A stretch of DNA of 64,000 bases, taken from a virus. The translations under genes were made by a program, and so were the position numbers. Shown here in pieces: positions 25,857 to 60,044 of this stretch. Positions within the stretch are counted from its first letter, which is position 1, and every line of letters begins with the position of its first letter. Location: the IMG/VR virus record IMGVR_UViG_3300046167_000453, positions 7,694-71,693 of that record; one strand, 5' to 3'. The notes under the pieces were generated by a model, which saw only the letters and a program-made list of their open reading frames with translations, searched no databases and was not told the origin of the DNA.

Positions 25857-26402
25857 TCACCCATAAATGCTTTTCTCTCTCTGTCTTTTTGCATTTTGCA
25901 TTTTATTCCATTTATACTCGCTAATATGGTTTGGTCTTTCATGGATAAGTTTTTTTGGTATTGACGGAGGCGAATTACTTTGATTGGTGTTTCGTTGGGC
26001 TACCTCTTTTGCTTCTTCTAATGCTTGAGGGTTTGGCTTTAATACATTTTTCCACGCCGTTTTCTGTCTTACTTCTAAAGGTTCTTGTCTACCATATTGT
26101 GTTCTTTCCATCCTTCTAACAACATTCCCCGATTTAGGAATTGGTGGTGCAGTAGCACTTAATTTTTTATCCATAAGAGCATTAAGTTTATTAGTATAAA
26201 TTTTAATATTTCTTTGATTATTTGATTGTTGGGCTTCTTTCAACTTTGCTTTAATTTGTTCCATTTCTAAATCCGGTGCGGAAGGGATAGGTTTTGCATT
26301 CATATCAGGCTTAGGTGGTGGTTTTGGTGAGTTATTCTCTCCCCTTAGAGTTGCTAATAATTCTGCTTCGTTCACTTTTTTAATTATATCAAACCAATTC
26401 AT
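25857..26402 (-). CDS. WxxILK-tagged basic protein (MNWFDIIKK...)
   Basis: N-terminal tag; AAGGTGA SD. Confidence 0.65.
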   Translation of the reverse strand: MNWFDIIKKVNEAELLATLRGENNSPKPPPKPDMNAKPIPSAPDLEMEQIKAKLKEAQQSNNQRNIKIYTNKLNALMDKKLSATAPPIPKSGNVVRRMERTQYGRQEPLEVRQKTAWKNVLKPNPQALEEAKEVAQRNTNQSNSPPSIPKKLIHERPNHISEYKWNKMQNAKRQREKSIYG

Positions 26403-33457: not shown

Positions 33458-34795
33458 TCATTGTATGTTTGTTATCTTTCCTTGTCCTTTGAAGAATGAA
33501 CAGCCGACTTCACCAATTGTTCGGTAAAGCGCACGATTGCCCAATGTTCCAACACCAAATGGATTTCCGTTTGCGATACCATCCTCAAAGTATTGAGTTG
33601 GTTTCATAACGGACAACCAAAGGTGGTCTGTATCAAGGAAAAGCATATCACTTAGTTTGGATGAAGCCGCACCAGTAGCGGTCATATCCTTAACAGGAAT
33701 CAAAGGAATATCGTAGTATGTTGCCACACGGAATCCGATTTCTTGTCCTTTTGTTCCACGAACACCATTAACTGTCGGGACAATTTCCTTTCTATCCATA
33801 AATCGCTCTTGGCTTTGCAATAGGTCAGCCAATGCTTGAATAGTGTCATATCCAGTAAGGATAACCTTTGGAGAGCCACCTGCAAGTCGCAAGTTACGAA
33901 TCATGTTATTTAGGAGAGTTAAAGTCAATTGACGAACATTTCCAGCAGTATAATCAGTTCCGAAATCAACTTCTGCATCAAGGAAAGAAGCGGCAGTAAA
34001 TCGCTCACTACCGTAAATTTTTCCTAAATTGTTAGAAGCACTAGTAGTATCAGTTGCGAGAACTCCACCATCAATTAGGAGTAATTCTGCTCTTGATGTA
34101 ATAACCTTCAACAATGATGAATAATTGTTACCAATGTTAGGCATAGCGGCAACTTCACCGTAATGTTCTAATGGCATAACTAGCATCTTGTTTTGAACTT
34201 CAGCGTGGTGCTTACCCATATCTTCACGCATTTGCGCTCGAATATCTCCGATTCCATCGTCAATTTGAGCCATTTCCATAGCCAATTCACTGAAATCGAA
34301 TTGATGTGCAACAACTTTTGGACTCATGTTTAATTGAGCATAAGTTGGAGCAATTGGGCCTAATCCATCTTGAGCAGTTGAAAGTGCGGCATTCTCAGGA
34401 ACACCACCAATCATATCTGCTCTTGGTGAATCCGAACCTAATTCAGCAAGGTTTTCTGTTCCGCTTGCATCAACGGTAAATAGATTTCCACTACCACCGG
34501 CAGGTCGGCTCTTTAATACTCTCCAACCACTTGAAGAATAAGGTCGCTTTGCAATCATTGAAAGTGCATTGACTTCTCGGTTTAGCATAGACCAAACCTT
34601 TTGTCCGTAAACGATGTTGTATAATGCTGAAACATCGGAAACTCCACTACCAGACAATGATGGAGAACCATCGTGTCCTGTGTGAATACCGCCGACCATA
34701 CCGGCTTGCTTCAATAAAGCATTACCGGCAGGTAAGTTGTTAATTCCGTATGTTTGCGCTTCTAAGTCTCTAATTGTGTTAATATATCCTGTCAT
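33458..34795 (-). CDS. Major capsid protein (HK97 fold)
   Basis: YGQKVWSMLN, GGVPENA, PKVILTG, IPLIP, FLDTDHL; follows the protease gene. Confidence 0.88.
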   Translation of the reverse strand: MTGYINTIRDLEAQTYGINNLPAGNALLKQAGMVGGIHTGHDGSPSLSGSGVSDVSALYNIVYGQKVWSMLNREVNALSMIAKRPYSSSGWRVLKSRPAGGSGNLFTVDASGTENLAELGSDSPRADMIGGVPENAALSTAQDGLGPIAPTYAQLNMSPKVVAHQFDFSELAMEMAQIDDGIGDIRAQMREDMGKHHAEVQNKMLVMPLEHYGEVAAMPNIGNNYSSLLKVITSRAELLLIDGGVLATDTTSASNNLGKIYGSERFTAASFLDAEVDFGTDYTAGNVRQLTLTLLNNMIRNLRLAGGSPKVILTGYDTIQALADLLQSQERFMDRKEIVPTVNGVRGTKGQEIGFRVATYYDIPLIPVKDMTATGAASSKLSDMLFLDTDHLWLSVMKPTQYFEDGIANGNPFGVGTLGNRALYRTIGEVGCSFFKGQGKITNIQ

Positions 34796-34807: not shown

Positions 34808-36043
34808 TCAAATGTTGTTCACCATCTTATGAATATCCGACCAATCCATTTCGGCAAGGTCATCTAATGATGGGAGGGTAACTGTTGCTTCTTTTTGAGC
34901 CTTAATGATTGAATCCTTTTCAGCAGTCAAAGACTTTCGCAATTGAGTAAATTCTTCCTTTAGAGAAGAAATTTCACTTGCTGCGTCATATTGAGACTTT
35001 GCTAGAATATTCTCACGGTTTGCTCTTTCGGAGTTAAATCGTGTTTCAAAAGACTTTCGGAGGTTATCGTAAGCAAGTGCTTCGAGTTGTTCTTCACGGA
35101 AAGCAGCATAAGCCTTTTCAATGTTTGAATTGCTCAAATCAAGAGAATCAAACTCATTGTTTGAGAATGCCTTAACAACAGGCATGTCCGAAGAAGTCGG
35201 CTTACCGTTGTTAATTACGATTCGGTCAGCAGGTTCGCCAATTTGGTTTCCTGCGCCATCGAGAGTGCGAAGGTATGCTTTATCTGCTTCTTCATAAGAA
35301 GAGTATTCTGCATTTTCTTCCATTGATTCTTCTTCATCATCAGCCATTTCCATGTCTTCTTCTTCATCAGCCATTTCTGCGGTTTCTGACATAGAAGCCC
35401 GTTCCATCATGTTTTCATCCTCTTCTTCCTCTTTGCGAAGCATATTAACTTCTTCCAAAAGGGTGTCCAATTCGCTCAGTGCTTTTTCTAGTTTTTCACT
35501 CATTTTTTCACTTCCTATATCTTGTTTTAAAATATCGAATTTCGCTTCGGGGTTAATTCCTTTTTCACATATTGTTACTTCATGGAGTTCTAACTTGCTT
35601 ATTTCGTTATATTCCCCTAATTCATTGTGGCTTTTCTTTACTTTTTGTAATGCTTGTCCACCAATACTAAATGACCTTAATGACCCTTTGCGAATGTTTC
35701 TTCCTACTTCCTTTGCTTTTTCAATGTCATCTCTTAGTTTAATTACTACAAAGAATCCCACATCATCTACTTCGGATTTCCATAATTTACCAGTTTTATC
35801 TCTATATGAATCTACGACTTCTCCAACTTGAACATTTGAATGATTAGTCATTACATTTCTAAACTTTGAGTCTCCCATGAATTTTTTAACTGATTCTTGT
35901 AATGCTTTTAATGTAATCAAATCGTTTTGTTTATCTACAATTTCAATGCTCGCATATCCACCAATCATTAAATCGTCGTTGCTTTTGAGAATGTTGAACT
36001 CATCATTCCTTGTAGCCATGACGCTTATACTCATGTTGCTCAA
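34808..36043 (-). CDS. Prohead protease fused to an acidic/coiled-coil scaffold
   Basis: IGGYAS...VDKQND, NHSNVQVG, SFSIGG, LHEVTICEKGINPEA; Glu-rich linker. Confidence 0.9.
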   Translation of the reverse strand: MSNMSISVMATRNDEFNILKSNDDLMIGGYASIEIVDKQNDLITLKALQESVKKFMGDSKFRNVMTNHSNVQVGEVVDSYRDKTGKLWKSEVDDVGFFVVIKLRDDIEKAKEVGRNIRKGSLRSFSIGGQALQKVKKSHNELGEYNEISKLELHEVTICEKGINPEAKFDILKQDIGSEKMSEKLEKALSELDTLLEEVNMLRKEEEEDENMMERASMSETAEMADEEEDMEMADDEEESMEENAEYSSYEEADKAYLRTLDGAGNQIGEPADRIVINNGKPTSSDMPVVKAFSNNEFDSLDLSNSNIEKAYAAFREEQLEALAYDNLRKSFETRFNSERANRENILAKSQYDAASEISSLKEEFTQLRKSLTAEKDSIIKAQKEATVTLPSLDDLAEMDWSDIHKMVNNI

Positions 36044-36063
36044 ACCTTCCTATTCTCTTTGAG

Positions 36064-36072
36064 TATATAATA
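36064..36072 (-). promoter_or_regulatory. Putative TATA box for the head operon
   Basis: TATTATATA in the intergenic gap upstream of the protease gene. Confidence 0.45.
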
Positions 36073-36081
36073 GACACGGCT

Positions 36082-37380
36082 CTATTTGGTAGGGAGGGTC
36101 AATTCTTTATACCTATCCTCATAAATATTCCACACTCCTGCATCTGATTCGTCATCAGCAGGAGTTTGTTTATATCCAGACCATGCTAGCCACATTTCCT
36201 TATTATCTACCTTAAGTCTTCTAATATTGAATTTAGTTTCAAACTTATTTCCTTCTAAGAAATATTCATGATAACCGTGCTTTTGTATTCCTAGTCTTAT
36301 ACTACCTTCATCTAAAAGTTTTCTTTTAGAAATGTTATTAGCAATCATAGCAGGGAATTTACCTGCTTTACCAAACAACTCAAATATATCGCCATCATCT
36401 TCTAAATCAATAAGCCAATTTAATGTTTCGTCTTTAAGTTTAATAACTAAGTTTAAATTATCATCATCTCTAAGGTATAATTTAAACTTACCATCCCTAT
36501 ATTCCTTTGGAGTTTTATATTCCTTAAGAATATTTTCTTCTTGTAATATTTTATCATCTTCCGAATAGAGTTTATTGGTCTTCTCATCATATGAAATACC
36601 ATCTCTTTGTTTCATCCAGTCTTTAAGTTTATCTAATTTACTTTCTAGAATATCTTCATAAATGTCTTTATGATTCTTAACTAAATAATTATGTAGTGCT
36701 TTAATAGTTTGCGGGCCTTTCGTTTTCATAAACTGAAAACCTGCCACTGTTAAACGAGATTGTTTAGTTTTCATAATTTCTTCCGCTTGATGCTTCCATA
36801 AGTCTAAATCTACTAAAGCATTTTTAGCCATCAAATTATCTTCCTCGAAACCATAGATAGTAAATCCATCCATGTCTCCCTTAATTAGAATAGAGGCTTC
36901 TCCGTGAATATGGTCGGTTATTGTAATACCTTTCTTAAGGGCTTCAACATTATAATTTAATGATTTTTCTCCGTCATTGGATAGCATCTCAAGAGTAATC
37001 AATTTGTCGGGGTGTCTTGCTTCGGGTAATTCTATTACCTTAGCGGAGTGAACGCTGTATATGTCGCCCTTCTTCTTAACATGGTCTATTTTGACTCTCA
37101 CTATGCTTCCTAAGTCAGCACTGATTTTAGTGTTAAGAGCCTTACCGACAAGCATATAGGTTTTACCTTCGATTTCTTGATAGTGCTTTCCTTCTCCTTC
37201 TGTTGGCCCTGCACCCAAAGAATAAGCGTAGTTACCACCGGATGATTTCTTATCTAGAACAATCAAATCTAAATCAACAAAACTCTTCCACTTAATCCAT
37301 TTAGGATTTTTCTTAGCCCCAACATAATAAGTAGATGTTGAGTCTTTAATAACCACTCCCTCGGCTGTTGGCATTTCCAT
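36082..37380 (-). CDS. lig: ATP-dependent DNA ligase, C-terminal fragment (motifs IV-V, OB fold, extension)
   Basis: EGVVIKD, KWIKWK, DLIVL. Confidence 0.8.
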   Translation of the reverse strand: MEMPTAEGVVIKDSTSTYYVGAKKNPKWIKWKSFVDLDLIVLDKKSSGGNYAYSLGAGPTEGEGKHYQEIEGKTYMLVGKALNTKISADLGSIVRVKIDHVKKKGDIYSVHSAKVIELPEARHPDKLITLEMLSNDGEKSLNYNVEALKKGITITDHIHGEASILIKGDMDGFTIYGFEEDNLMAKNALVDLDLWKHQAEEIMKTKQSRLTVAGFQFMKTKGPQTIKALHNYLVKNHKDIYEDILESKLDKLKDWMKQRDGISYDEKTNKLYSEDDKILQEENILKEYKTPKEYRDGKFKLYLRDDDNLNLVIKLKDETLNWLIDLEDDGDIFELFGKAGKFPAMIANNISKRKLLDEGSIRLGIQKHGYHEYFLEGNKFETKFNIRRLKVDNKEMWLAWSGYKQTPADDESDAGVWNIYEDRYKELTLPTK

Positions 37381-37957
37381 AATTGTCCTTAGAGTATTCC
37401 TCTATATCTTTAATAGAATCTGCTAAACGAGTATCTTTCTTAGAAGGGAAAGTTAAATCTTCACTGGAATGAATGGAGTAATTATTAAACATCAGTTGCA
37501 TTCTTTGAGTCAAGGTATCTTCTAATAATGACTTTTCATTGTGCCTTAATAAATCAAACATGTGCATTCTTAATCTACCGTCTGAGTTTTTATCATTAAA
37601 AACATGGGAAATGGTTTCTGCTCTATTAAGTGCTTCATCTCCTTTGAATAGTAACAAAGAACCATCTAATATACAGTCACCAAAATGTTTCTTTTCTAAT
37701 TCTTCTACTTGTTTTTTACACTTAGAAGTAATGTCTTTACCATCAAAAGAGAACACTTTAACCTTCTTGTCTATTTTTTGCATTTGAATACGAAGTCCGT
37801 CATATTTTTCTTGGACATAATATTCTCCACTAAATCCTTTAAGTTCTTTTATGTCGTCTATTTCAAATATACGATACATTGGCTTATTTGGCACTATAAA
37901 ATCAGACTGAGATTTTTCTTCACTAGATTTCTTTTCATCTGCTTTCTTAACAGGCAA
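37346..37957 (-). CDS. lig: ATP-dependent DNA ligase, adenylation fragment
   Basis: QEKYDGLR (motif I), CILDG, MFDLL; joined to the next part by removing one G near 37387. Confidence 0.82.
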   Translation of the reverse strand: MPVKKADEKKSSEEKSQSDFIVPNKPMYRIFEIDDIKELKGFSGEYYVQEKYDGLRIQMQKIDKKVKVFSFDGKDITSKCKKQVEELEKKHFGDCILDGSLLLFKGDEALNRAETISHVFNDKNSDGRLRMHMFDLLRHNEKSLLEDTLTQRMQLMFNNYSIHSSEDLTFPSKKDTRLADSIKDIEEYSKDNYGNANSRGSGY

Positions 37958-38000
37958 GCCATCAATTTCTTCTAATTCACTCCATTCGCCCTTATCATTC

Positions 38001-38606
38001 TTAGATAAGAATATTAACTCTAATAGGACTCATCGCTGCCTTTACTTTCGATTTGACTTTATTTGAGTCTTTTCCATCCCCATAATGCTCTATAATATAC
38101 AGGTCTATATCATCCGCTTGTAGGTCAAGTCCTTGAAGACCCTCCGTAATATCGTCAGGTTCGATGTCTTTAACGGCGTAAATGTCGGGAGATAGTGCTT
38201 TACTGTCTTCTCTAATAGCATAGTGAACAAATTTAACCATGTTACCCGTTGAAGATAACAATGCTTCTAAGACTTCACCTTTGAATCTCTTAGCGAAAGG
38301 GTCGTCTATGGATTCGGAAGAATAACGAAGTTTCTTAATTCCTTCGTATATTTTTTCTGCATTTTGTGATTGTGGGTCTTTGACATCATCTGCTTCTAAA
38401 TCAGAAATTTCTATAAAGTTCTTTAACTCATTAGACATTTCATTAGAATCTTCATATTTTCCTTTGATGTTATCTACCGCACTTCTCCACTTTGACCCGT
38501 ATTCTTTAGGGTCAGTGCGAGCCGATAGATAAGCCACTCTTACTTTTTCAAATAAGCGAACAATTTCATCCGATGTGGACTTATCCTTTTCAAGAAGATA
38601 AGCCAT
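38001..38606 (-). CDS. N-terminal extension of the ligase (frameshifted)
   Basis: Removing one base near 38027 gives SLLELIFLSKNDKGEWSELEEIDGLPVKKAD, in frame with ORF 37346-37957. Confidence 0.6.
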   Translation of the reverse strand: MAYLLEKDKSTSDEIVRLFEKVRVAYLSARTDPKEYGSKWRSAVDNIKGKYEDSNEMSNELKNFIEISDLEADDVKDPQSQNAEKIYEGIKKLRYSSESIDDPFAKRFKGEVLEALLSSTGNMVKFVHYAIREDSKALSPDIYAVKDIEPDDITEGLQGLDLQADDIDLYIIEHYGDGKDSNKVKSKVKAAMSPIRVNILI

Positions 38607-38615
38607 TTATTTCAC

Positions 38616-39257
38616 CTATGAACTTCTACCAAAATACATCGTAAGTTCTTTTAAGTCAGAAACGATTTCTTTTAAATCTCTTTCTAATTTCGGTATCTGC
38701 TTAATATTCGCAGTAAGTAGTTTGGAATTTATTTTTTTCATGGTATCTGATAGAGTATTAAAAGTATTATCAGCCATTTGTTGCTGTTGGTCTGTAAATT
38801 CGACATCTCTATCGTCTTTCTTGAAATCTCCGAATCCACCTTTGCTTTTACTAAGCATAGTCATTTGCTTTGTTAATACTTGGTAAACGGCATCTACTTG
38901 CTGTTTAAGTGCTTTTAGTGCTTTTGTTTCTTCTTCGTTTAAAACACCCTTAGCAAGTTCCTTTTCAATTTTTCTATCCCCTTCAATAACAAACGCTCTT
39001 GCTGAACGGACAGCAGTAATCATCTTTGCCTTATCAAAACCTTTCTTAATTTTACCACTAGTAAACTCTTCTCCACCGGAATTAGCATGAACCTTGTCTT
39101 GCTTAATACCATGCTTGGATGCTTTAGCCTTTGGTCGCTTAACCTTTTCAATAATAGGCTTAGTATCTTCACCATCTCGTAGTGCTTCTAATGTTTCTCT
39201 TGCCTTTAATATCGCTAATTCAATAATTTTTTCTTCTCTTGTTACTTTTTCCGGCAT
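38616..39257 (-). CDS. Coiled-coil hypothetical head-module protein
   Basis: ORF track. Confidence 0.6.
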   Translation of the reverse strand: MPEKVTREEKIIELAILKARETLEALRDGEDTKPIIEKVKRPKAKASKHGIKQDKVHANSGGEEFTSGKIKKGFDKAKMITAVRSARAFVIEGDRKIEKELAKGVLNEEETKALKALKQQVDAVYQVLTKQMTMLSKSKGGFGDFKKDDRDVEFTDQQQQMADNTFNTLSDTMKKINSKLLTANIKQIPKLERDLKEIVSDLKELTMYFGRSS

Positions 39258-39496
39258 TATTGTCCACCTACCTTTTCGACCATTTTATGAATGTCAGACC
39301 AGTCCATACTTCCAACATCTCCCATAGGAGAAGAAATACCACTACCATTATTCATGTTTGGGCTTGGACTTTGAGAAACTACTAAACCGGACTTCATCAA
39401 TAGATTATCCTGATGATATACTGTTTTTTCTAGATTTTCTATCTTTTCTGTTAAAGCCTTAAGAATGGCTAATAACTCTACATTTTGTTCTGTCAC
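39257..39496 (-). CDS. Small scaffold-like protein ending in MDWSDIHKMV
   Basis: N-terminal coiled coil; C-terminal 10-mer identical to that of the protease-scaffold. Confidence 0.7.
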   Translation of the reverse strand: MTEQNVELLAILKALTEKIENLEKTVYHQDNLLMKSGLVVSQSPSPNMNNGSGISSPMGDVGSMDWSDIHKMVEKVGGQ

Positions 39497-47589: not shown

Positions 47590-48039
47590 TCACCATTTTA
47601 CTTTATTTGCCCAATAAGCGGCACTTGTTTTGCCTCTCTTGATGTTCTTAGCGTGTCGGCTCTTAAATGATTTGCGCTTGGCTTTCATTCTTTTGCTTTC
47701 ACCCTTCTTTGGTTTTCCGGCTACACTTGCGCCCTGTTCACCAAATCGAATTGTTTTTGTTTTCTTACCGTCTTTAACAACAACAACATGAGATTTCTTA
47801 GGATGCTTTGGTGTTCTCTTTGGCTTACTAAAACCGGAAACCCCCGCCCTCTTTAATGCAGGGTGTTTCTTTCTAAGTATTCTAAAATCTTCAGCATCCA
47901 ACTTTCCGTTCTTATTTTTATCAAGTTTCTTTTGCTTAGGACTTAAAGCCTTATTTGTTTTCTCTCTACAAGTTGCACAATCGCAATCCATTTTTTCAGT
48001 GCCACAATGGGCTTTTAAAACTTCTTTCCATTTACTCAT
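47590..48039 (-). CDS. Tagged basic protein with an EF-hand-like loop and an IRFG...SF..RH...AAYWA domain
   Basis: MSKWKEVLK; DKNKNGKLDAED; TIRFGEQG...SAAYWANKVKW. Confidence 0.7.
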   Translation of the reverse strand: MSKWKEVLKAHCGTEKMDCDCATCREKTNKALSPKQKKLDKNKNGKLDAEDFRILRKKHPALKRAGVSGFSKPKRTPKHPKKSHVVVVKDGKKTKTIRFGEQGASVAGKPKKGESKRMKAKRKSFKSRHAKNIKRGKTSAAYWANKVKW

Positions 48040-48437
48040 TTTTCTCGCCTCATTTGATTCTCTTTAGACTTTACATCATCATCAATTGGGCCACCTTTGG
48101 CCCAAGTATAACAAGTTCTTGCCGAATGGCATTTGAAATCGTGCATCCAACAATAACCTAAACGACCGTCTTTATCAGTAGATAGTGGCATACATTCATC
48201 CATTCTAGGAGATATGTCAAATGCAACACAGTTACTACAATTGGATTTCTTAGCAACCTTAGCAGTAGTATTCCATCGTTTAGCATATTCTTCCCAATAC
48301 TTTTCATCATTTAGATTAAGAGGCCCATATTGAATATGTTTTTCTTTAACAGCCCTATCTCGGTTTTTAGTATTTAATTTTAAGTTCTGCGTTGGCATAG
48401 GACAAGAGAGTTCCTTTATAATTATTTTCCAACTCAT
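48036..48437 (-). CDS. Tagged Cys-rich protein with a HiPIP-like Cys pattern
   Basis: MSWKIIIK; NCSNC...GYC...TCYTW. Confidence 0.7.
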   Translation of the reverse strand: MSWKIIIKELSCPMPTQNLKLNTKNRDRAVKEKHIQYGPLNLNDEKYWEEYAKRWNTTAKVAKKSNCSNCVAFDISPRMDECMPLSTDKDGRLGYCWMHDFKCHSARTCYTWAKGGPIDDDVKSKENQMRREK

Positions 48438-48658
48438 CTTGTAAACGCCCCTCTTCTTTTAGGCTTATGAGTATAAATGTCTCCATCTCGGTGCATAAAT
48501 ATTTTTCCTTTCTTTTGTAAATTAGATAGTGCTGCTTTAATTTCAGATTCTTCTCCAAACTGTTTTAGGTTCTTCATACCCAATGCACCGCCTTCTTTCT
48601 TAATTTCAGCAAGTATTTTTGCTTCAATGTCCATTTTTAATATATCTTCCCAATTCAT
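48434..48658 (-). CDS. Tagged small wHTH-like protein
   Basis: MNWEDILK; EAKILAEIKK...IKAALSNLQKKGKI. Confidence 0.65.
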   Translation of the reverse strand: MNWEDILKMDIEAKILAEIKKEGGALGMKNLKQFGEESEIKAALSNLQKKGKIFMHRDGDIYTHKPKRRGAFTR

Positions 48659-49038
48659 GCACCTTTCCTCCTTTTATAAGTTTTACAAGCACCACAAGTC
48701 GGCCTACATCTTTGTTTAGTTCCTTTAGAAGCATCTTTACGACCACAAGGTTTTGTTCCTTTCTTATCATCTTCACATGATTGACAAGAAACCCAACCCT
48801 TTTGTCCACCTCCACCTTTTCTTGAAAACCAACCGTGTAGTCCCGATTCTTTTTCTCTTTTGAAATTATCTCCGCCTTTCTTTACAGAATTGCCCCAATT
48901 CTTTGCACCAACTTTACGGCATTGAACCAAAGCACCGGAAGCATAAGCAGAAGGCCATTTCTTATATCGGCTTCTTACTTTGGTATAACAAGCATCCTTT
49001 TTCTTTTTCAATTCTTCAAACCAAAGTTCCGTCATCAC
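48655..49038 (-). CDS. Tagged basic Cys-containing protein (WPSAYASGA domain)
   Basis: LWFEELK; KKDACY...WPSAYASGALVQCRK; GLHGWF...KPCGR...CRP. Confidence 0.7.
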   Translation of the reverse strand: MMTELWFEELKKKKDACYTKVRSRYKKWPSAYASGALVQCRKVGAKNWGNSVKKGGDNFKREKESGLHGWFSRKGGGGQKGWVSCQSCEDDKKGTKPCGRKDASKGTKQRCRPTCGACKTYKRRKGA

Positions 49039-50309
49039 TTACCACCTCGGCTTTGGTCTTCGACATCATACCTTTCAGTGCTTGAACGAAGCATTTCATC
49101 TTGAATACCTAATAAACATTTATATCTTCGTTCTGGGAACTTAAGACCAATATTTAAATACATATCCACCATGTTCTTATTAATCTTTCCTAAATTAGAA
49201 TACCTAACAAACTTTTGCTTGTCGCCCATTAAATACTTGTCATCTCGAATAACTTTAATTAGGCCCTTCCACATACCCTTAGTGATTTTTTTATTGGACA
49301 TTCTAATTTTATTCTTTCGGGCCTTAACCAAATCAAACCAACTCCCTGTATTAGACTTAATCCACTTTTGCACTTGGTCTGCATATTTAGTATCTTTAAG
49401 TTCTTCTTGGATTTCTTCGGGAAGTTCTTCCACTTTCATATCCGTGAATCCTCTTTTTCTAAATGAACCCTGTTCTGCTAATTTTTCATTAGCAACATTG
49501 ATATACAAAGTTTTACTACCTTTCTCGGATAGAACCTTTTGAACACATAGCCCAAATAGGCCTTTTCCTTTGTAGTCTTCCCTTGTATGAATACCTGCGC
49601 CAAGTAGGACACTCTTATACTTTGCTATTCCACAAACTGCTACGGGAGTTTCACCATCAAATGCAACAAACATTGTTGCCGGTGCAGTAGCCCAAATAGA
49701 ATCCCTTGAAAGGTTTGGGCCATAGCGCATACTTCTTTTTACATAATCAAAGTAGCCATCATCATTAAATGCTTTAACTGCGGCATCCTCGGACATCTCC
49801 TTGAAAGTAATATCGCTTTCAGTATAGTTTTGCTTCTTGAAAGTAAGCCTTTGTCCTGTCGGATAATCAGTAGAATAAAGAGCCTTAGCATCCATTACCA
49901 TTTTCTTATACTCATCCGTAACCTTTCCATCAGGAGTAACGAAACTTGCACCCGATTCATTCTTTTTAGAAACGGCAATTGAATCCTGCTTATACTTCTT
50001 TGCTAATTTAAATATGTCTTTCATGTAATCTTCCGGAACATTCGTAAGCATAAAAGAAGGTTCTAATTCCCATTCAGCATTACCAGTAGCACTTGTAATA
50101 GTAAATGGAGTTTTGTCACCCTTTTTTATTTTATTATTTAATTCAGTTAAATCTTTGAGCATGGCATCGCTTAAGCGAGAGAGTTCTTTACTAGAAGTAG
50201 GTCTATTACCTTCCTTCGCAGCAATAAAAACATTACTGTTTTTCTTGCTAAGGTTTCTTCTAATCTGCTTCTTATTATAGGCAGGAAGAGTAGTCTGTCG
50301 TTTCTTCAT
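49035..50309 (-). CDS. Multidomain protein: DUF3293/SAM-lyase-like domain + GNAT acetyltransferase + basic tail
   Basis: EPSF...LAKKYKQDSI; HTREDYKGKGLF and FRKRGF GNAT motifs. Confidence 0.65.
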   Translation of the reverse strand: MKKRQTTLPAYNKKQIRRNLSKKNSNVFIAAKEGNRPTSSKELSRLSDAMLKDLTELNNKIKKGDKTPFTITSATGNAEWELEPSFMLTNVPEDYMKDIFKLAKKYKQDSIAVSKKNESGASFVTPDGKVTDEYKKMVMDAKALYSTDYPTGQRLTFKKQNYTESDITFKEMSEDAAVKAFNDDGYFDYVKRSMRYGPNLSRDSIWATAPATMFVAFDGETPVAVCGIAKYKSVLLGAGIHTREDYKGKGLFGLCVQKVLSEKGSKTLYINVANEKLAEQGSFRKRGFTDMKVEELPEEIQEELKDTKYADQVQKWIKSNTGSWFDLVKARKNKIRMSNKKITKGMWKGLIKVIRDDKYLMGDKQKFVRYSNLGKINKNMVDMYLNIGLKFPERRYKCLLGIQDEMLRSSTERYDVEDQSRGGK

Positions 50310-50313
50310 ACAA

Positions 50314-52899
50314 TCACCTAAAGTTCGCTTTCAAAACATATACATGCTCTGCATCAATTCCGTATTCCTTAGCAATACCTTCAAAAGAATCTACTGCTTT
50401 AACTACTCCAATAATCTCACTAGCACTCATATCAATGCTGAAATCTGTTTCCATCTTGGTAATCATGTTTTCCATATCATCATAACTATTTTCATTCTTC
50501 ATTGAATGAATAACTGATTTAGATTTTAATATTCGTAATGTATCATGTGCTTCAAGTAACTTTCGCTGTATTACACTCTTAGTAACTTTATCCAACAAAC
50601 CTAATAGCCTTTTAGCCTTTTCATTAGAAAAGGTTTCATTTTCTCCTTTTTCAGTTCTAATTTCTAAATTAGTTCCTCTCGTTTTAATAACATCTACTAG
50701 GGCTTGAATAGGATATATGTCAGTTGGGTCATTAGCATTCCTAGCATCATACAAATCACTCACCAATTCTTTATTTTTTGGAAATCTATTTTCTTTTTTA
50801 CCATCTATTTCTTTTTTCCCATCTTTAGGTATTAAGCGATAAATAGAACCCAATATTGAGCCGATGTCCTTACTTAAGTTTTTAGTGACAACATCATCAT
50901 CAAAAACATTTTTTAAAGTAAATAATAAAGTTCTAGACTTTTCGTATAGTTCAGAATAATTAGTAATATTATTTGCACCGGCTAAAGTCTGTAAATACTC
51001 AATAATATCTTCAATATCTTCTTCTTGTAAAAATGCAGTATCTCGTTCTAGCAATACTTTATTTATAGCAGTAATTGCTTGGTATTTTTCACCTATTGGC
51101 CTTGTTGCTGAAATCAACCTAATAGTAAAGTCTCCCTCGAATGGTAAACGAATACCTGCCCTGTATGGAGAAAATTGAGGGGCTAAGAAACAATTAGCCA
51201 TAGTCTTTGAGATTAGATTAACAATTACACTTATTTTTTCATCTAAGTCTTTTGCTTCCTTCATATCAGTCTTATCACTATCATATCTTTGAGAACCCTT
51301 TGAACCGGCCACATATTGCCCATAACTAAACCATATGAACGGCTTTCCTGAACCCCTACTTACCATTCTATCTTCGGGGTCTTTTGATGCTCGCTCAGTT
51401 CCTAAACCTGTCATATCTACATTTACTTGACTAGAAAGAGTAGTTTTATCTTTTTCTATAAATTCTTTAAATAACATTAAAAAATTATTTATTGTATCTT
51501 CTATTTCTCTCGCTTGTCCAGATAAAGTTCGATATTCATTTGCTAAAGCAGAATCATTAGCCATAAATATAGGCAAGTATAATTCATCTCCAACATCCTC
51601 AACAGATTCCAAATTTTCTAAAAAATTCTCAAATGTCGCTTTTACATCTTCTTCTTTGAGAGTAGGGTAATTTTCATTATTGTCAGAAAGGTCATCAAAA
51701 TATTCTTTCAACTCTTCTTTTAGTTCTTGTAAGTTAGTATTTACCATACCAATTCCTTTAAGTTGATTTCGGAAATATATTAAACCTAATGGGTCTAATG
51801 GTTGCTTCTCATCAAGAGTTTCAGAAAATTCTTCTATTTGAGCAGGCAAAGAATCTTCTTCTATCTTCTCATCTATATCGCTTGACTGTTGCATTTCTCC
51901 TTCTTGGTTATAGTATTTACTATAATCAATATTTTCATACAATCCTACATCTTGAACTTCCATAATACCTCCGATATAATTTAAGAAACTTTCAAATGCT
52001 TCATAGGCAACTACATCTATATCTTTCGTTGCTACTTCTGTTCTATCGAATTTATGTATATAGTTTAGACTCTTTCTGTTTTCTCCATCTGAGATGAATT
52101 GATATAGGGCTTGCATTTCCTTATCCTTTTTTGGTATTTCATCTAACAGTTTAGATAATTCTAGCAATTCATTGTTTAATTGCTCAAACGAATTATTTCC
52201 CTTGCCAACGCTTATATTTTCCCAATATTTGTAAGTATCTTCTCTTTTTTCGAAGTTTTTCATGCTTTTTGCATTAAAAACACTCTTAACATCGAAGCCA
52301 ATACCCATTCTAGCACTGACTCGTTGGCTTTCTTTGGACTCGCTACGGTTACTATAAGAGTCTTTTATTCTCTCAAATAGCCTACGCATGTTCCTTTTAA
52401 TGACAGAAGTTGCTTGCGTATCAGCAGTAAACTCGCTTTTTTTGAGAAGATTCTGCCATTTTCGCTTAATTTCATCCAAATCTATGGCTTTTTTACGCCT
52501 ATCTTGCTTCATTCCACCATTAACTAACTTTATTTCATCAGTGTCAAAATCATCTCGTATCATGTCACTAGCATTTAACTTTCTGCCCATATATCTAATT
52601 GCAGGTATGCTTCTAATTAGACCATTAAGTAAATTCTCATAAAGAGTAGCAGGAGTGGAGGCTCTACCAACGCCTCCCTTTGCTTTAAAGTAATCTTTTA
52701 TTTCTGCTATGATTTTTTTTCTTGTTTGGGGTTTGTCATCTCTATCTAAATCAATATATTTTTGGTTAAACATTGGCTCATATTCATTTCTTATTCTTTT
52801 TACCAATCCAGCCTTAACTTTAGTCAATTCTCTATATTTATCATAATCTAGAACAGATTCATAATTATCTATATAATGGGGTAAATACTCATATTTCAT
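50314..52899 (-). CDS. 861-aa helical hypothetical protein
   Basis: Long ORF. Confidence 0.7.
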   Translation of the reverse strand: MKYEYLPHYIDNYESVLDYDKYRELTKVKAGLVKRIRNEYEPMFNQKYIDLDRDDKPQTRKKIIAEIKDYFKAKGGVGRASTPATLYENLLNGLIRSIPAIRYMGRKLNASDMIRDDFDTDEIKLVNGGMKQDRRKKAIDLDEIKRKWQNLLKKSEFTADTQATSVIKRNMRRLFERIKDSYSNRSESKESQRVSARMGIGFDVKSVFNAKSMKNFEKREDTYKYWENISVGKGNNSFEQLNNELLELSKLLDEIPKKDKEMQALYQFISDGENRKSLNYIHKFDRTEVATKDIDVVAYEAFESFLNYIGGIMEVQDVGLYENIDYSKYYNQEGEMQQSSDIDEKIEEDSLPAQIEEFSETLDEKQPLDPLGLIYFRNQLKGIGMVNTNLQELKEELKEYFDDLSDNNENYPTLKEEDVKATFENFLENLESVEDVGDELYLPIFMANDSALANEYRTLSGQAREIEDTINNFLMLFKEFIEKDKTTLSSQVNVDMTGLGTERASKDPEDRMVSRGSGKPFIWFSYGQYVAGSKGSQRYDSDKTDMKEAKDLDEKISVIVNLISKTMANCFLAPQFSPYRAGIRLPFEGDFTIRLISATRPIGEKYQAITAINKVLLERDTAFLQEEDIEDIIEYLQTLAGANNITNYSELYEKSRTLLFTLKNVFDDDVVTKNLSKDIGSILGSIYRLIPKDGKKEIDGKKENRFPKNKELVSDLYDARNANDPTDIYPIQALVDVIKTRGTNLEIRTEKGENETFSNEKAKRLLGLLDKVTKSVIQRKLLEAHDTLRILKSKSVIHSMKNENSYDDMENMITKMETDFSIDMSASEIIGVVKAVDSFEGIAKEYGIDAEHVYVLKANFR

Positions 52900-52901
52900 A
52901 A

Positions 52902-54875
52902 CTATTCACTCTCTTGTTTTTTTTCTTTAAATATCCCAGCATTTTTTAATAAGTTAAATGTTTCTCCTGAGAAAATACCAGAATAGGATTCTTTGTTTTT
53001 AATTAAGTAGTTTAAGTGCAGTTTCAGTTCTTTCTTAAATAAAGTATTGACTTTTTTAAGCCCAATTAAGAGTTTTTTCGACAAGTCACTTACTGCTTGT
53101 TCCAAGGTTGGGTCTGTAAGTGATAAGGCTTCTCCTTCCTCTTCCATAATAGAGTCAATTTTTTCAACCTCACTATCTAAATTGGACTGTGCCACTTTAA
53201 CTACTAAGTAATAAGCCATAATAAAACAATCAATGATATCATACTGTTTAGAGAGTTTACTATAATACCTATCTAGATTACCATATTCAAAAACCAAATC
53301 AGAAAGAGGTTTTTTTGTCAATATTGCCCTTTCAATTGCAAATTTTATTGAATTTGGTGTAATTTCTGCTTTTTCAGCCGAACCTAAGTCTTCAGGCTTT
53401 ATTTCTTCTGGATTTTCTTTAATAAATTGTTTAAAGTTTCGCTCTATACGCCTAATAGTATTTATTCCTTTTTCATCAACTGCATGGTAAGCATCTCCAA
53501 CTTTAGAAAGGTCTTCTAAATCCTTTTCTACCGCAATTTCATCGTAATCGAGATAAATGTCCATCATTGACTGAGATATTCTCTTGTTATTTAAATATCT
53601 TTCATAATCTCTATCCAATGCTTCTTTAGTCCCTTCTTTATCTGCATCAAAGTTTTTACTTCGTTGAGAATATGCCGCCGTAAATTGTTTTTTACCCATA
53701 GCAGGTATGACTTGGACTCCTTCGGCAGCGTTTTCAAAAATAGAATCGTTATTTGGTGAAGTCAAAACCCCTTTAACGAATCTAATTGAGGCAACTTTCT
53801 TCCCCCCCGCAGGAAAGTGTATAACTTTTGAAATTCTTTGGTTATTTAAGGTTCTCATATACAAATCTTTACTACCTTTATTGTTTACCTTTCCTGCAAG
53901 CATTAAAATATTAAAATATTCTTCAATTTGTTTGGCTGTTAAAGACTTAACTGTATCAACATTTTGAGAAGAAGCAGTTTCCATTTCATCTACTTCTAAT
54001 CTAGCAGTAAATGGTTTTCTTCCGAGCAATATTCTTGGTAATAAGGGAGGAATACGGCTACTTATAGTTTCATCATCAGAAATATTACCTATTTTTTCAA
54101 CTAATTGTATAAATTGACTACTTTCTGTTTTACTTGAGCCACTTGGAGAATATTTTTCACTATCGCTACTAGGAAAAACCTTTCTCCAAGTCTCAAAATT
54201 TCTGCCGGATATATTTTTTTCTCCTTTTTCCCAACCTTCTATGGTTTCTTTACCAGAAGGTTCTGCTAAAGACAGTTCCGCCAACCCAAAATTGTAGATT
54301 GGTCTTGAATTTTCTAAAAAATCATTGACCGTAGGTTCACCTTCTTCGGGAATGTTATTAACATATAACTTATAAAGAGGTTTTCTTTTTTCTTTAGGTA
54401 TATCCCTAAGAATATGGTGCATTAAAGTTCCCCTTTTAAACTTATTAGTTAAATAAACAAATAATTTATTTAAATTAGACTCTATTTCTTTATTAGCAAA
54501 AATGTTTTCCAAAGTAGAACCTGCTGTTGAAACAGAAGAAGAAGAGAGTTTAGATATGTGTTCCCTAATTTTAACAAAATTATTAAAAATAGTGCTATTA
54601 ATTTCTTCTCTACCTTTACCTTCATTATTTTCTCTATCTTTTTTGAGTTGAGTTACCCAATCATCATACAATTTTCGATATTTGCTCGATTTTTTAAATG
54701 CTCTTTTTAATGACTGATAGGAATTAATATCTTTAAACTCCTGAACTAATTCCATTACTGCTTCAATGTTCTTACTTCTTTTACTTTTACCAGTAGTTAA
54801 TGCTATCTGAGCATCAGTAGAAACATCCGAAATTAGAACTAAATTAACTAATTCAGAAATAGGGGGTAAACTCAT
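52902..54875 (-). CDS. 657-aa hypothetical protein
   Basis: Long ORF; GGAGAGG SD. Confidence 0.7.
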   Translation of the reverse strand: MSLPPISELVNLVLISDVSTDAQIALTTGKSKRSKNIEAVMELVQEFKDINSYQSLKRAFKKSSKYRKLYDDWVTQLKKDRENNEGKGREEINSTIFNNFVKIREHISKLSSSSVSTAGSTLENIFANKEIESNLNKLFVYLTNKFKRGTLMHHILRDIPKEKRKPLYKLYVNNIPEEGEPTVNDFLENSRPIYNFGLAELSLAEPSGKETIEGWEKGEKNISGRNFETWRKVFPSSDSEKYSPSGSSKTESSQFIQLVEKIGNISDDETISSRIPPLLPRILLGRKPFTARLEVDEMETASSQNVDTVKSLTAKQIEEYFNILMLAGKVNNKGSKDLYMRTLNNQRISKVIHFPAGGKKVASIRFVKGVLTSPNNDSIFENAAEGVQVIPAMGKKQFTAAYSQRSKNFDADKEGTKEALDRDYERYLNNKRISQSMMDIYLDYDEIAVEKDLEDLSKVGDAYHAVDEKGINTIRRIERNFKQFIKENPEEIKPEDLGSAEKAEITPNSIKFAIERAILTKKPLSDLVFEYGNLDRYYSKLSKQYDIIDCFIMAYYLVVKVAQSNLDSEVEKIDSIMEEEGEALSLTDPTLEQAVSDLSKKLLIGLKKVNTLFKKELKLHLNYLIKNKESYSGIFSGETFNLLKNAGIFKEKKQESE

Positions 54876-54888
54876 TGTAACCTCTCCT

Positions 54889-55188
54889 TTATTTAGTTTC
54901 TAGCCATCGTAAAAATGCTTTATGTTTCTTAGTGTAATCACCCAAATTCACAATACCAGATTTTTCGCCCTTTTCATCTCTAGGAATAATCCTATCCATT
55001 TCTTCTTCTAAATCCTTTCCAAATTTAGCAACTGCTTCCTTGACTAATTTAGGAATATCTTTCATAGGTAGATTAGGGTTTTGAGAGACATGATAATCTA
55101 CTTGAAGGTAAATTTCGGGAAATTCCCTTTCTAATTCTTCATCGTAAGACCATATAGTTTCCTTTTTCAATATATTTTCCCAACTCAT
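54889..55188 (-). CDS. Tagged hypothetical protein (MSWENILK)
   Basis: N-terminal tag. Confidence 0.65.
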   Translation of the reverse strand: MSWENILKKETIWSYDEELEREFPEIYLQVDYHVSQNPNLPMKDIPKLVKEAVAKFGKDLEEEMDRIIPRDEKGEKSGIVNLGDYTKKHKAFLRWLETK

Positions 55189-55193
55189 ATTAA

Positions 55194-55640
55194 TCATTCC
55201 TGTTTTCTCCTATACCACATTGATAGGCGATTGTTTCTCTTTTTTACCAATTCTTCTTCTATTCCGTTAATTTGACTAATTGCTAAACTAATTTTAGTAA
55301 GGGCTTTCTCGACTAAAGGTTCATCCTCTTGGTTGTAATCCAAGTCAATTACTTCACCGTTCAAATCCCGTAGTTTTCTAAAAATGTATGATAAGTGAGA
55401 TGTAGTGTTATCGTATGTTGGATTATTTAAGTATCTTTCTTTATCTTCGTTTAGTCTATCCATAATGTCTTCAAATTCTTCTTCGCCGGAATCAAATGGG
55501 GGCTTATCAAAAATAGCAAGTGATTTAAGAGGGGATAAGGCTTCTATTACTTTATTATATAGATTTACTCCGGCGTAGTGTTTTCCATAGATGAAGTCTT
55601 CACGCTCATCATCTACTTTCAATATACTTTTCCAACTCAT
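55194..55640 (-). CDS. Tagged acidic hypothetical protein (MSWKSILK)
   Basis: N-terminal tag; GGAGAG SD. Confidence 0.65.
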   Translation of the reverse strand: MSWKSILKVDDEREDFIYGKHYAGVNLYNKVIEALSPLKSLAIFDKPPFDSGEEEFEDIMDRLNEDKERYLNNPTYDNTTSHLSYIFRKLRDLNGEVIDLDYNQEDEPLVEKALTKISLAISQINGIEEELVKKRNNRLSMWYRRKQE

Positions 55641-55656
55641 TTTAATCTCTCCTTTA

Positions 55657-56379: not shown

Positions 56380-56615
56380 TTTAATCTCTCTTTAGATATA
56401 TTATTAACTCGTCGTATAGCATCATTGATAACTTCTATGATACTTTTTTTAAGAGGTAGGTCTTCTAGCGATACTTCACTTCGGTTCTTAACCAAAGTTA
56501 AAATTTCATATACTGCGTAATCGAGCATTGACTCTCTAGTATCACCTGCCTGTTCATCAAATCTTTTCAGCCTTTTTATAGATTTTGTCTTATTAATTTC
56601 ATCTTTCCAACTCAT
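56376..56615 (-). CDS. Tagged small protein (MSWKDEINK)
   Basis: Variant tag; ATGA coupling. Confidence 0.6.
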   Translation of the reverse strand: MSWKDEINKTKSIKRLKRFDEQAGDTRESMLDYAVYEILTLVKNRSEVSLEDLPLKKSIIEVINDAIRRVNNISKERLK

Positions 56616-57280: not shown

Positions 57281-57578
57281 ATTGTTGTTTTTAAGTCACT
57301 AGTATTTGCACTCATTTCTTTTGTAGTATAACCATAGTTTCTTAGTAATTTAGAATATGCTCTCAAACTTTCTTGTTTACCTTTTAGCCTATTAAGTCCT
57401 GCTTTTTCTTCTCTAGTTCCCAATTCATTAACTACTTCAGTATAAGTTGATATTAGTTTTTCATCCAAATCTTTAGTGTTGATTCCTTTACCGTCTAATT
57501 CCTCTACAATTCTTCTAATTGTTTCTTTGACTAATTGAAAATTAAATTTCTTTCTTTTCAAGATACTGAACCAAACAT
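57265..57578 (-). CDS. Tagged hypothetical protein (probable true start M-V-W-F-S-I-L-K)
   Basis: TGG TTC AGT ATC TTG AAA in frame upstream of the called start; nearby ATG is one base out of frame. Confidence 0.55.
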
Positions 57579-60039: not shown

Positions 60040-60044
60040 TATAA

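What the first reader, a model, noticed from the sequence alone, without database searches (positions are those of the whole stretch)
34821..39307. The protease-scaffold C-terminus MDWSDIHKMV is repeated in a separate 79-aa protein and matches the cargo tag
Seen: the protease-scaffold ends ...EMDWSDIHKMVNNI and ORF 39257-39496 ends ...SMDWSDIHKMVEKVGGQ. The DNA copies (34821-34849 vs 39279-39307) differ at 4 positions, all synonymous, which points to selection on the peptide. M-D-W-S-D-I-H-K has the same register as M-S-W-E-D-I-L-K. Known: scaffold C-termini are the coat-binding elements in P22 and herpesviruses. Inference: the tag copies the scaffold's capsid-docking helix, and the 79-aa coiled-coil protein is a second mini-scaffold or adaptor. 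This supplies a mechanism for the tagged array.
Basis: partly seen in the sequence, partly recalled or inferred. Interest (0 to 1): 0.85.

Follow-up and report, generated by a model that had tools for sequence, protein, structure and literature searches.

The report
Shared docking tail, magrovirus head proteins
In this uncultured ocean archaeal virus, the capsid protease-scaffold and a separate 79-residue helical protein end in the same conserved tryptophan peptide, most likely a shared handle for entering the assembling capsid; the similar peptide that starts many other genes is a related but distinct signal.

Summary
The protease-scaffold (34808-36043, minus strand) and a 79-aa protein (39257-39496, minus strand) both carry MDWSDIHKMV near the C-terminus. 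The 30 coding bases differ at 5 sites, all synonymous third positions. It is the only 10-mer shared by non-paralogous ORFs of the genome; 1.75e-4 are expected.

The pair of tails is kept in three magrovirus lineages: both tails occur in 47 of 80, 39 of 80 and 39 of 74 loci, many of them short.

The small protein is modelled as a long helix, a disordered linker and a Trp helix. Best reading: a shared procapsid docking module, with the small protein as a second internal scaffold or adaptor, later freed at conserved [IL]-[LIM]-K sites. No binding was shown.

The claim that the tag copies the tail is only partly supported. The shared core M-x-W-x-[DE]-I is statistically real. However, tags always keep I-L-K while tails keep a polar residue at that position. 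One sister lineage keeps the tails but uses a different N-terminal leader.

This scan had already noted the same feature on other DNA: 65 notes in at least 58 genomes. None of the papers I searched describes it.

The parts
34808..36043 (-). Protease-scaffold fusion, 411 aa. Layout: residues 1-22 disordered; protease domain 26-173; helix 179-222; acidic disordered region 217-301; helices 305-351 and 354-386; short helix 393-398; tail helix 401-410.
   Evidence: Pfam Peptidase_S78, 39.7 bits against a cut-off of 21, residues 22-176. PHROG head maturation protease. AF2 model. Foldseek finds herpesvirus assemblins and T4 gp21, prob about 1.0.
34811..34867 (-). Scaffold C-terminal module, residues 393-411 (LDDLAEMDWSDIHKMVNNI). 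The decapeptide lies at 34820-34849. W401 is the only invariant residue of the last 40 alignment columns.
   Evidence: 76 of 80, 69 of 80 and 70 of 74 loci have a 380-600 aa ORF ending in the Trp motif.
39257..39496 (-). 79-aa protein: helix 3-35, conserved DNLLMKSG.VV..SP.P, disordered linker 36-60, Trp helix 66-77. Candidate second internal scaffold or adaptor.
   Evidence: 80 homologues. Alignment A1 invariants. AF2 model, pLDDT 68. No Pfam or PHROG family above threshold. No PDB fold match.
39260..39325 (-). C-terminal module of the 79-aa protein, residues 58-79 (MGDVGSMDWSDIHKMVEKVGGQ). The decapeptide lies at 39278-39307.
33458..34795 (-). Major capsid protein (HK97-type), 445 aa. It is the candidate receptor only. 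Its N-terminal YINTI.DLE..TYG (residues 4-17, 34745-34786) and LLK (residues 27-29, 34709-34717) are kept in all three lineages.
   Evidence: Pfam SU10_MCP and phrog_24667. About 25% identity to halovirus MCPs. Alignment A2 invariants. N-termini across lineages.
35984..35998 (-). F16-N-I-L-K20, a candidate protease cut site in front of the protease domain.
   Evidence: K20 is invariant and L19 nearly so in 17 diverse homologues. The site lies in a segment with pLDDT about 30. Cleavage itself is inferred.
35525..35539 (-). F169-D-I-L-K173, a candidate cut site between the protease and scaffold domains.
   Evidence: F169, I171 and K173 are invariant. A low-confidence linker at 173-182 follows. 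Cleavage itself is inferred.
39392..39400 (-). L33-M34-K35 of the 79-aa protein, a candidate cut site between the N-terminal helix and the linker.
   Evidence: Invariant in 24 sequences. The equivalent LL[RK]KAG is present in lineage 3. Cleavage itself is inferred.
47590..63460 (-). Array holding 16 of the 17 ORFs that start with M-x-W-x-x-[IV]-[LI]-K or a close variant. Coordinates are stop side first, then the A of the tag's ATG: 47590-48039, 48036-48437, 48434-48658, 54889-55188, 55194-55640, 55657-56379, 56376-56615, 58665-58826, 58820-59377, 59377-60039, 60045-60713, 60718-61482, 61492-62178, 62189-62680, 63019-63270, 63275-63460.
   Evidence: The proteins are 53-254 aa, 11 of 17 have pI of 8.4 or more, and none has a clear membrane segment. 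One is a pentapeptide-repeat protein.
25857..26402 (-). The seventeenth tagged ORF (MNWFDIIKK...), lying among the neck and tail genes.

Best explanation
The last 19-25 residues of the protease-scaffold and of the 79-aa protein are one portable module: a short helix, a turn, then an amphipathic helix built around an invariant Trp. It most likely acts as a shared docking handle that brings both proteins to one receptor inside the assembling procapsid. By analogy, that receptor would be the inner face or N-arm of the major capsid protein. On this reading the 79-aa protein is a second, protease-less internal scaffold or adaptor, made of a long N-terminal helix (probably for self-association), a flexible linker and the docking helix. 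After assembly, the head protease would free both proteins, and trim the MCP, at conserved [IL]-[LIM]-K sites. The N-terminal M-x-W-x-[DE]-I-L-K tag is a related but separate class: it joins the Trp core to the I-L-K site motif and is not a plain copy of the tail. Shown here: the shared module, its selection as a peptide, its conservation with synteny, the predicted architecture, and the conserved Lys sites. Inferred: docking, the identity of the receptor, cleavage, and any loading of tagged proteins.
For: The decapeptide is identical although 5 of the 7 degenerate codons differ. 17 DNA versions encode the same peptide in scaffold homologues. It is the only 10-mer shared by non-paralogous ORFs in the genome. 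Both tails occur in 47 of 80, 39 of 80 and 39 of 74 loci of three lineages, and most misses are short contigs. Across these lineages the bodies of both proteins diverge (scaffold down to 37% identity) while the linker of the small protein varies freely. 23 of 150 representatives of the protease family carry [MLAT]-x-W-x-[DEQ]-[IVL] in the last 30 residues, against 4 occurrences in 68,057 other residues. The models show helix-linker-helix for the small protein and a terminal helix-turn-helix for the scaffold. Both genes lie in the head module between portal and MCP. In 80alpha/SaPI1, a scaffold and a 72-aa helical protein share a C-terminal helix-and-hook that binds the capsid protein N-arm (PMC5644958, passages read). 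The D3 paper generalises C-terminal scaffold contacts with an N-arm helix (PMC12749128, passages read). The MCP N-terminal helix motif is as conserved as the Trp core in all three lineages. Halovirus HVTV-1 lacks both the tail motif and that MCP motif (one genome only).
Against: No physical or reliable computational evidence of binding to any partner was obtained. The receptor is assigned only by analogy. The tail has no likeness to the 80alpha RIIK hook. Tail positions 7-10 differ between the two proteins in several lineages (for example scaffold IHK[AM] with small-protein IE[KR]F), so the two tails need not bind identically. The small-protein gene lies nearer the portal than the MCP, which fits a portal-linked role equally well. 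Cleavage at Lys sites rests on conservation and position only.
Confidence: 0.55

Rival explanations
1. One reading: the N-terminal tag is a copy of the scaffold's docking helix, binds the same MCP site, and thereby loads the tagged proteins as capsid cargo.
For: A profile built only from 61 C-terminal tails of relatives was scanned over the window genome's proteome. After the two tails (37.5 bits), five of the next six hits are N-terminal tags (14.3, 13.6, 11.2, 11.2, 11.0). The fifth-best score in 200 shuffles averaged 2.8 with a maximum of 5.9. Some relatives' small-protein tails read MSWEDI..., identical to the tag over six residues. A large head-module protein of relatives ends in [ST]-W-[QR]-E-I-L-K-V, a tag-type motif at a C-terminus. 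The tagged ORFs are co-oriented with the head genes and directly upstream of them, and are mostly small and basic with no clear membrane segment. T4 internal proteins use a conserved capsid targeting sequence on otherwise diverse proteins (PMC3012670, passages read).
Against: The converse profile, built from 13 tags, gives the tails only 12.1 bits, against a shuffle mean maximum of 10.5 and a highest maximum of 18.3. Tails always have a polar residue (H/N/E/T/D) where tags always have L or I. The tags do not follow tail changes in five relatives. In lineage 3 the tails persist, but the tag is replaced by F-[DE]-x-A-W-x-[VIL]-[LI]-K, with different Trp-to-Lys spacing and no acidic residue. Packaging of any tagged protein is untested.
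Confidence: 0.3
2. The tail is a handle for a partner other than the MCP. Candidates are the portal, the scaffold core itself (tail-mediated co-assembly of the small protein with the protease-scaffold), or the protease active-site region as a pseudo-substrate.
For: The small-protein gene sits in the portal-proximal block (42975-44618 portal, 39257-39496 small protein). The scaffold has a strongly conserved helical region (A311, Y312, E321, F332, R335, E339) that could receive a helix. The window's tail ends I-H-K, loosely like the I-L-K sites.
Against: Many lineages have tails without Lys at that place (INALV, IHLAM), which argues against a substrate-like role. There is no evidence for any of these partners.
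Confidence: 0.2
3. The Trp peptide has nothing to do with the capsid. It is a short linear motif for a host or viral factor, such as a chaperonin, a degradation system or a localisation system, and happens to be shared by head proteins and accessory proteins.
For: The motif is short and helical, and in its tag form it occurs on many proteins of unknown function.
Against: The tail form is restricted to the C-termini of protease-scaffolds and one syntenic head-module protein across three lineages and many distant protease homologues. Scaffold termini are the known coat-contact elements in studied phages.
Confidence: 0.08

Closest known systems
Phage 80alpha scaffolding protein gp46 and SaPI1 CpmB (PMC5644958; passages read)
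   Same: A full scaffold and a small helical protein of about 72-80 aa are otherwise unrelated but share a homologous C-terminal helix of about 16-20 residues. The small protein has an N-terminal self-association part and a flexible link to the docking end.
   Different: CpmB belongs to a satellite that hijacks the phage and shrinks its capsid. Here the small protein is the virus's own gene, syntenic in three lineages. The motif is Trp-centred, not RIIK. The scaffold is fused to the protease. Binding to the capsid protein is not shown here.
Herpesvirus UL26/UL26.5, and phage lambda C/Nu3 and Mu I/Z: protease-scaffold plus a shorter scaffold with the same C-terminus (recalled, not read here)
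   Same: Two head proteins, one carrying the protease, end in the same peptide. The protease fold here matches assemblin and T4 gp21. Conserved candidate cut sites flank the protease domain.
   Different: In those systems the shared end arises from nested in-frame genes, so the DNA is identical. Here the second gene lies 3.2 kb away, its DNA differs at 5 of 7 degenerate codons, and the rest of the protein is unrelated.
C-terminal capsid-targeting tail of the HK97 maturation protease gp4 (Duda, Oh and Hendrix 2013; only the title was seen, in a reference list; the paper is not held; content recalled)
   Same: Same protease family (Pfam S78). A C-terminal tail, rather than the catalytic domain, would direct encapsidation.
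   Different: HK97 has its scaffold on the MCP (the delta domain) and no second protein with the tail. Sequence likeness of the tails was not tested.
Capsid targeting sequence (CTS) of T4 internal proteins (PMC3012670; passages read)
   Same: A short conserved N-terminal peptide on otherwise diverse small proteins of one virus. This is the closest analogue for the tag array, not for the tail.
   Different: No sequence likeness is claimed. Neither packaging nor clipping is shown here. The T4 CTS is said to act on the scaffolding core, not through mimicry of a scaffold tail.

Membership tests
HK97-type prohead serine protease (Pfam PF04586, Peptidase_S78) | Profile match above the curated cut-off | tested here: met
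   39.7 bits against a cut-off of 21, residues 22-176. PHROG head maturation protease families, E 1.6e-15.
HK97-type prohead serine protease (Pfam PF04586, Peptidase_S78) | Assemblin/gp21-like fold | tested here: met
   Foldseek of the AF2 model finds EBV, HCMV, VZV and KSHV proteases and T4 gp21, prob 0.97-1.0, E 6e-4 to 5e-3. The model's pLDDT is about 80 in this domain.
HK97-type prohead serine protease (Pfam PF04586, Peptidase_S78) | Catalytic His/Ser residues | not tested
   Invariant H68, S69, S126, H154 and E155 exist in alignment A3, but they were not mapped onto a known active site.
Internal scaffolding protein with a C-terminal coat-binding helix (P22 gp8 / 80alpha gp46 type) | Helical C-terminal end that is the most conserved part of an otherwise variable, coiled-coil-rich protein | tested here: met
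   Helices 393-398 and 401-410. W401 is invariant while the acidic region 217-301 is unalignable.
Internal scaffolding protein with a C-terminal coat-binding helix (P22 gp8 / 80alpha gp46 type) | Direct contact of that end with the capsid protein | not testable with these tools
   Needs procapsid structures or binding assays.
Internal scaffolding protein with a C-terminal coat-binding helix (P22 gp8 / 80alpha gp46 type) | 80alpha-type RIIK hook | tested here: not met
   No RIIK or similar basic hook in either tail.
CpmB-like alternative scaffold | Small helical protein whose C-terminus is homologous to that of the main scaffold | tested here: met
   79 aa; 11 of 19 identical C-terminal residues; helix-linker-helix model.
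CpmB-like alternative scaffold | Encoded by a satellite, and redirects capsid size | tested here: not met
   The gene lies in the virus's own head module and is syntenic, 3.2-7 kb upstream of the scaffold gene, in three lineages. A size effect is untestable here.
Nested protease/scaffold gene pair (herpes UL26/UL26.5, lambda C/Nu3) | The shared C-terminus comes from one in-frame reading frame | tested here: not met
   Separate ORFs at 34808-36043 and 39257-39496 with different codons.
T4-type capsid targeting sequence (for the tag array) | Conserved N-terminal peptide on otherwise unrelated proteins of one virus | tested here: met
   17 ORFs in the window. 6-9 exact pattern matches per genome in 5 of 5 relatives, against 0-1 for the control.
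T4-type capsid targeting sequence (for the tag array) | Tagged proteins are packaged and the tag is removed by the head protease | not testable with these tools
   No proteomic data on magrovirus particles were found. Supplements are closed.

The most novel reading that the evidence does not exclude
Magroviruses run a two-part peptide address code for the capsid interior. A Trp-centred docking core is shared by the scaffold, a second mini-scaffold and the N-termini of 6-17 fast-changing accessory proteins per genome. It is joined to an [IVL]-[LI]-K release site read by the head protease. The virus would thus load and then free a changeable set of proteins that enter the host with the DNA, and lineages can swap the leader (M-x-W-x-x-I-L-K versus F-[DE]-x-A-W-x-[VIL]-[LI]-K) without touching the scaffold tail.
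Probability: 0.3. Interest if true: 0.8.

Novelty: new variant of a known kind. Interest (0 to 1): 0.55.

Why it matters
Magroviruses are among the most abundant archaeal viruses of the surface ocean and have no cultured member, so their assembly is known only from sequence. A conserved, transferable docking tail on two head proteins gives a concrete handle for heterologous procapsid work. The tail and the two leader types are short enough to test directly as loading signals on reporter proteins. If the tags prove to be loading signals, the tagged genes would be a catalogue of proteins delivered with the DNA into Poseidoniales cells. The finding itself, two proteins sharing a scaffold end, follows a principle already known from 80alpha/SaPI1, herpesviruses and lambda. 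That limits the surprise.

Tried and rejected
- Complex prediction, MCP (alignment A2) with the 79-aa protein (alignment A1): verdict 'no answer', score 0.00 in both runs, controls not run. It counts neither for nor against binding.
- PDB sequence search with the scaffold: no match at E up to 1.
- Foldseek of the 79-aa model: nothing meaningful, best E 3.9.
- Natural scaffold-MCP fusions carrying the motif, which could have shown intramolecular docking: sought among the 32 representatives of 600 aa or more, none found.
- Halovirus HVTV-1 as an outgroup: its protease-scaffold tail and MCP N-terminus lack both motifs. This is one genome only, so the co-occurrence argument is weak.
- Rejected: recent DNA duplication or gene conversion as the cause of the repeat, because synonymous sites are near saturation.
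- Rejected: a DNA-level signal for the tags, because synonymous codons vary among the 39 matches and all lie on the coding strand.
- Literature: two magrovirus papers were searched by terms with no mention of such a motif (PMC5434244 and PMC11706807, passages only). Searches for 'magrovirus' (22 papers), 'magrovirus'+'proteom' (8) and 'capsid targeting'+'N-terminal'+'archaeal virus'+'internal proteins' found nothing on it. Supplements are closed and might hold gene tables that bear on this. Duda et al. 2013 is not held, so what I say of HK97 gp4 and of Lys-Ser cutting is recalled.

Full report
**What the window is.** The window is 64 kb of a 71.7-kb viral contig with 34% G+C. Its head module lies on the minus strand:
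- large terminase, 46152-47585 (weak Pfam matches);
- portal, 42975-44618;
- a 959-aa protein;
- ORFs of 121, 79, 213 and 201 aa;
- an ATP-dependent DNA ligase in two overlapping ORFs;
- a protease-scaffold fusion, 34808-36043;
- the major capsid protein (MCP), 33458-34795.

The best matches of the MCP and protease among deposited phage genomes are haloarchaeal tailed viruses, at 24-30% identity. More than 570 relatives of the scaffold occur in IMG/VR. This fits the magroviruses of marine group II archaea as described in PMC5434244 (passages read).

- The scaffold ends ...LAEMDWSDIHKMVNNI and the 79-aa ORF ends ...GSMDWSDIHKMVEKVGGQ.
- The ten codons (34820-34849 and 39278-39307) differ at five bases. 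All are third positions and all are synonymous, which is five of the seven degenerate codons.
- BLASTP aligns only the last 19 residues (11 identical).
- No other 10-mer is shared by non-paralogous ORFs of the genome; 1.75e-4 are expected.

**Conservation in relatives.** I examined three sets of IMG/VR loci, found with the window's scaffold, with P0083 and with P0090. The table gives the number of loci with each feature.

| Locus set | Loci | 380-600 aa ORF ending in the Trp motif | Small ORF ending in the motif | Both |
|---|---|---|---|---|
| Window's scaffold | 80 | 76 | 50 | 47 |
| P0083 | 80 | 69 | 45 | 39 |
| P0090 | 74 | 70 | 42 | 39 |

- Many loci are contigs of 4-8 kb that cannot hold both genes.
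- The small gene always lies upstream of the scaffold gene, by about 3.2-3.5 kb in sets 1 and 2 and about 6.5-7 kb in set 3.
- The exact peptide MDWSDIHKMV is encoded by 17 DNA versions in scaffold homologues.
- In an alignment of 17 scaffolds down to 37% identity, W401 is the only invariant residue of the last 40 columns.
- In 24 small proteins, W66, S67, I69 and H70 are invariant while the linker 47-62 varies freely.
- Of the 150 best representatives in a search of 1.84 billion proteins, 23 carry [MLAT]-x-W-x-[DEQ]-[IVL] in their last 30 residues. The same pattern occurs 4 times in 68,057 other residues.
- The one named cluster among the ten I looked up comes from Methanosarcinales and Thorarchaeota metagenome bins.
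- Halovirus HVTV-1 lacks the tail.

**Anatomy.**
- The shared part is longer than ten residues: P-x-x-x-[DE]-hydrophobic-x-x-M-[DS]-W-x-[DE]-[IV]-[HN]-x-[LM]-[VA].
- AF2 models the 79-aa protein as helix 3-35 (pLDDT 81-92), a disordered stretch 36-60, and helix 66-77.
- AF2 models the scaffold as a disordered 1-22, the protease domain 26-173, helix 179-222, a disordered acidic stretch 217-301, two long helices 305-386, and then helices 393-398 and 401-410.
- The protease domain matches herpesvirus assemblins and T4 gp21 by fold.

**Tag against tail.** Seventeen minus-strand ORFs start with M-x-W-x-x-[IV]-[LI]-K or a close variant. The exact DNA pattern occurs 6-9 times per genome, always on the coding strand, in 5 of 5 near-complete relatives; the reversed control gives 0-1.

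Tests of likeness gave mixed strength:
- A profile built from 13 tags scores the tails at 12.1 bits, rank 17-18 of 21,811 positions. This is close to the shuffle mean maximum of 10.5 (highest 18.3), so it is marginal.
- A profile built from 61 tails of relatives places tags at five of the six best non-tail positions (14.3 to 11.0 bits). The fifth-best score in 200 shuffles never exceeded 5.9.
- The shared core M-[SDN]-W-x-[DE]-I is therefore real.

The two classes nevertheless stay distinct:
- Tails have H, N, E, T or D at position 7, where tags have L or I.
- Tags stay I-[LI]-K in genomes whose tails read INALV, IHNLV, ITEMV or IEKFV.
- In the P0090 lineage the tails remain M-S-W-[DE]-E-[IV]-H, yet the tag pattern has 0 matches in 5 genomes of 86-107 kb.
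- In that lineage, 2-8 ORFs per genome instead carry F-[DE]-x-A-W-x-[VIL]-[LI]-K near the start. This pattern is absent from the other five genomes.
- So the leader changed while the tail did not.

**Lys sites.**
- Alignment A3 shows invariant K20 (F-x-I-L-K-[SA]) and invariant F169, I171 and K173 (F-D-I-L-K-Q) on either side of the protease domain. Both lie next to low-confidence segments.
- The MCP keeps [LI]-L-K-[QSA]-x-G after a variable Gly-rich loop in all lineages.
- The small protein keeps L-L-M-K-S-G, or L-L-[RK]-K-A-G in lineage 3, after its helix. Lineage 3 has a further [IL]-[LI]-K in the linker.
- Both leader types end in [IVL]-[LI]-K.
- I read these as head-protease cut sites. 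This is inference from conservation and position only.

**Most likely mechanism.** The tail is a docking module that takes the protease-scaffold and the small protein to a common receptor in the procapsid. That receptor is most likely the MCP N-arm, whose YINTI.DLE..TYG motif is as constant as the Trp core. The small protein then acts as a second scaffold or adaptor, and both are released at the Lys sites. I give 0.55 to the docking module, and less to the MCP as the specific receptor.

The rivals are:
- the tag and the tail use the same site (0.3; this reading can hold together with the best explanation);
- the tail binds another partner, such as the portal, the scaffold core or the protease (0.2);
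- the motif has no link to the capsid (0.08).

**Comparison with known systems.**
- The closest case is 80alpha gp46 with SaPI1 CpmB, which share a C-terminal helix-and-hook that binds the capsid protein N-arm (PMC5644958; also PMC12749128). Here the small protein is the virus's own gene and the motif is different.
- Herpesvirus UL26/UL26.5 and lambda C/Nu3 share ends through nested genes (recalled). That is not the case here.
- The tag array is closest to the T4 capsid targeting sequence (PMC3012670).

**Novelty and limits.**
- No paper I searched describes the tail pair or the tags. Supplements were closed.
- Within this scan the same feature has been noted repeatedly on other magrovirus DNA: 65 notes in at least 58 genomes, with the same general reading.
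- Nothing here measures binding, packaging or cleavage.

Noticed in passing
window 61492-62202 (-): This ORF has the N-terminal tag (MTWKNIIK, after an upstream in-frame start) and also ends in a tag-like KMDWKGILKE just before the next tagged gene. It may be the remnant of a gene start captured by loss of a stop codon, which suggests a route by which C-terminal tails could arise.
   Followed up: partly
L240-L245 (G009) and G006-G010: A sister lineage of magroviruses lacks the M-x-W-x-x-I-L-K tag entirely. It uses the leader M-x-x-[AP]-F-[DE]-x-A-W-x-[VIL]-[LI]-K on 2-8 ORFs per genome, while keeping the scaffold and small-protein Trp tails.
   Followed up: yes
L095 3116-6388; L118 58-2322; L161 2269-5727: In relatives, the large head-module protein (754-1152 aa as called; the L118 ORF starts near the contig end), which lies where the window's 959-aa ORF does, ends in [ST]-W-[QR]-[DE]-I-L-K-V. 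This is a tag-type motif at a C-terminus. The window's 959-aa protein lacks it, but the next ORF (39493-39858) starts MTWDFYEEGKEIILKE.
   Followed up: no
window 36082-37380 and 37346-37957 (-): The ATP-dependent DNA ligase lies inside the head module, between the small proteins and the protease gene. It is split into two overlapping ORFs: the adenylation domain is in the upstream 203-aa ORF (Pfam DNA_ligase_A_M). Possible causes are a frameshift, a sequencing error or a genuine two-part enzyme.
   Followed up: no
window 60718-61482 (-): One tagged protein is a pentapeptide-repeat protein (Pfam E 3e-11). Members of that fold are known as DNA mimics (recalled), which would suit an anti-defence protein delivered with the DNA.
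   Followed up: no
window 49035-50309 (-): A 424-aa ORF has weak S-adenosylmethionine lyase and GNAT matches and two internal tag-like motifs, SWFDLVK and MWKGLIK. It may be several fused or mis-joined tagged units.
   Followed up: no
window 34808-36043 (-), residues 379-381: An I-I-K lies 30 residues before the scaffold C-terminus and is partly conserved as [IV]-[ILR]-K-[AK]-Q. If it is cut, it would detach the tail from the scaffold body, much like the herpesvirus maturational site (recalled).
   Followed up: partly
protein P0158: A 925-aa representative with the protease domain at its C-terminal end holds two internal L-W-W-E-[DE]-L-[RK]-V motifs. It may be several tagged genes read through as one ORF.
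   Followed up: no
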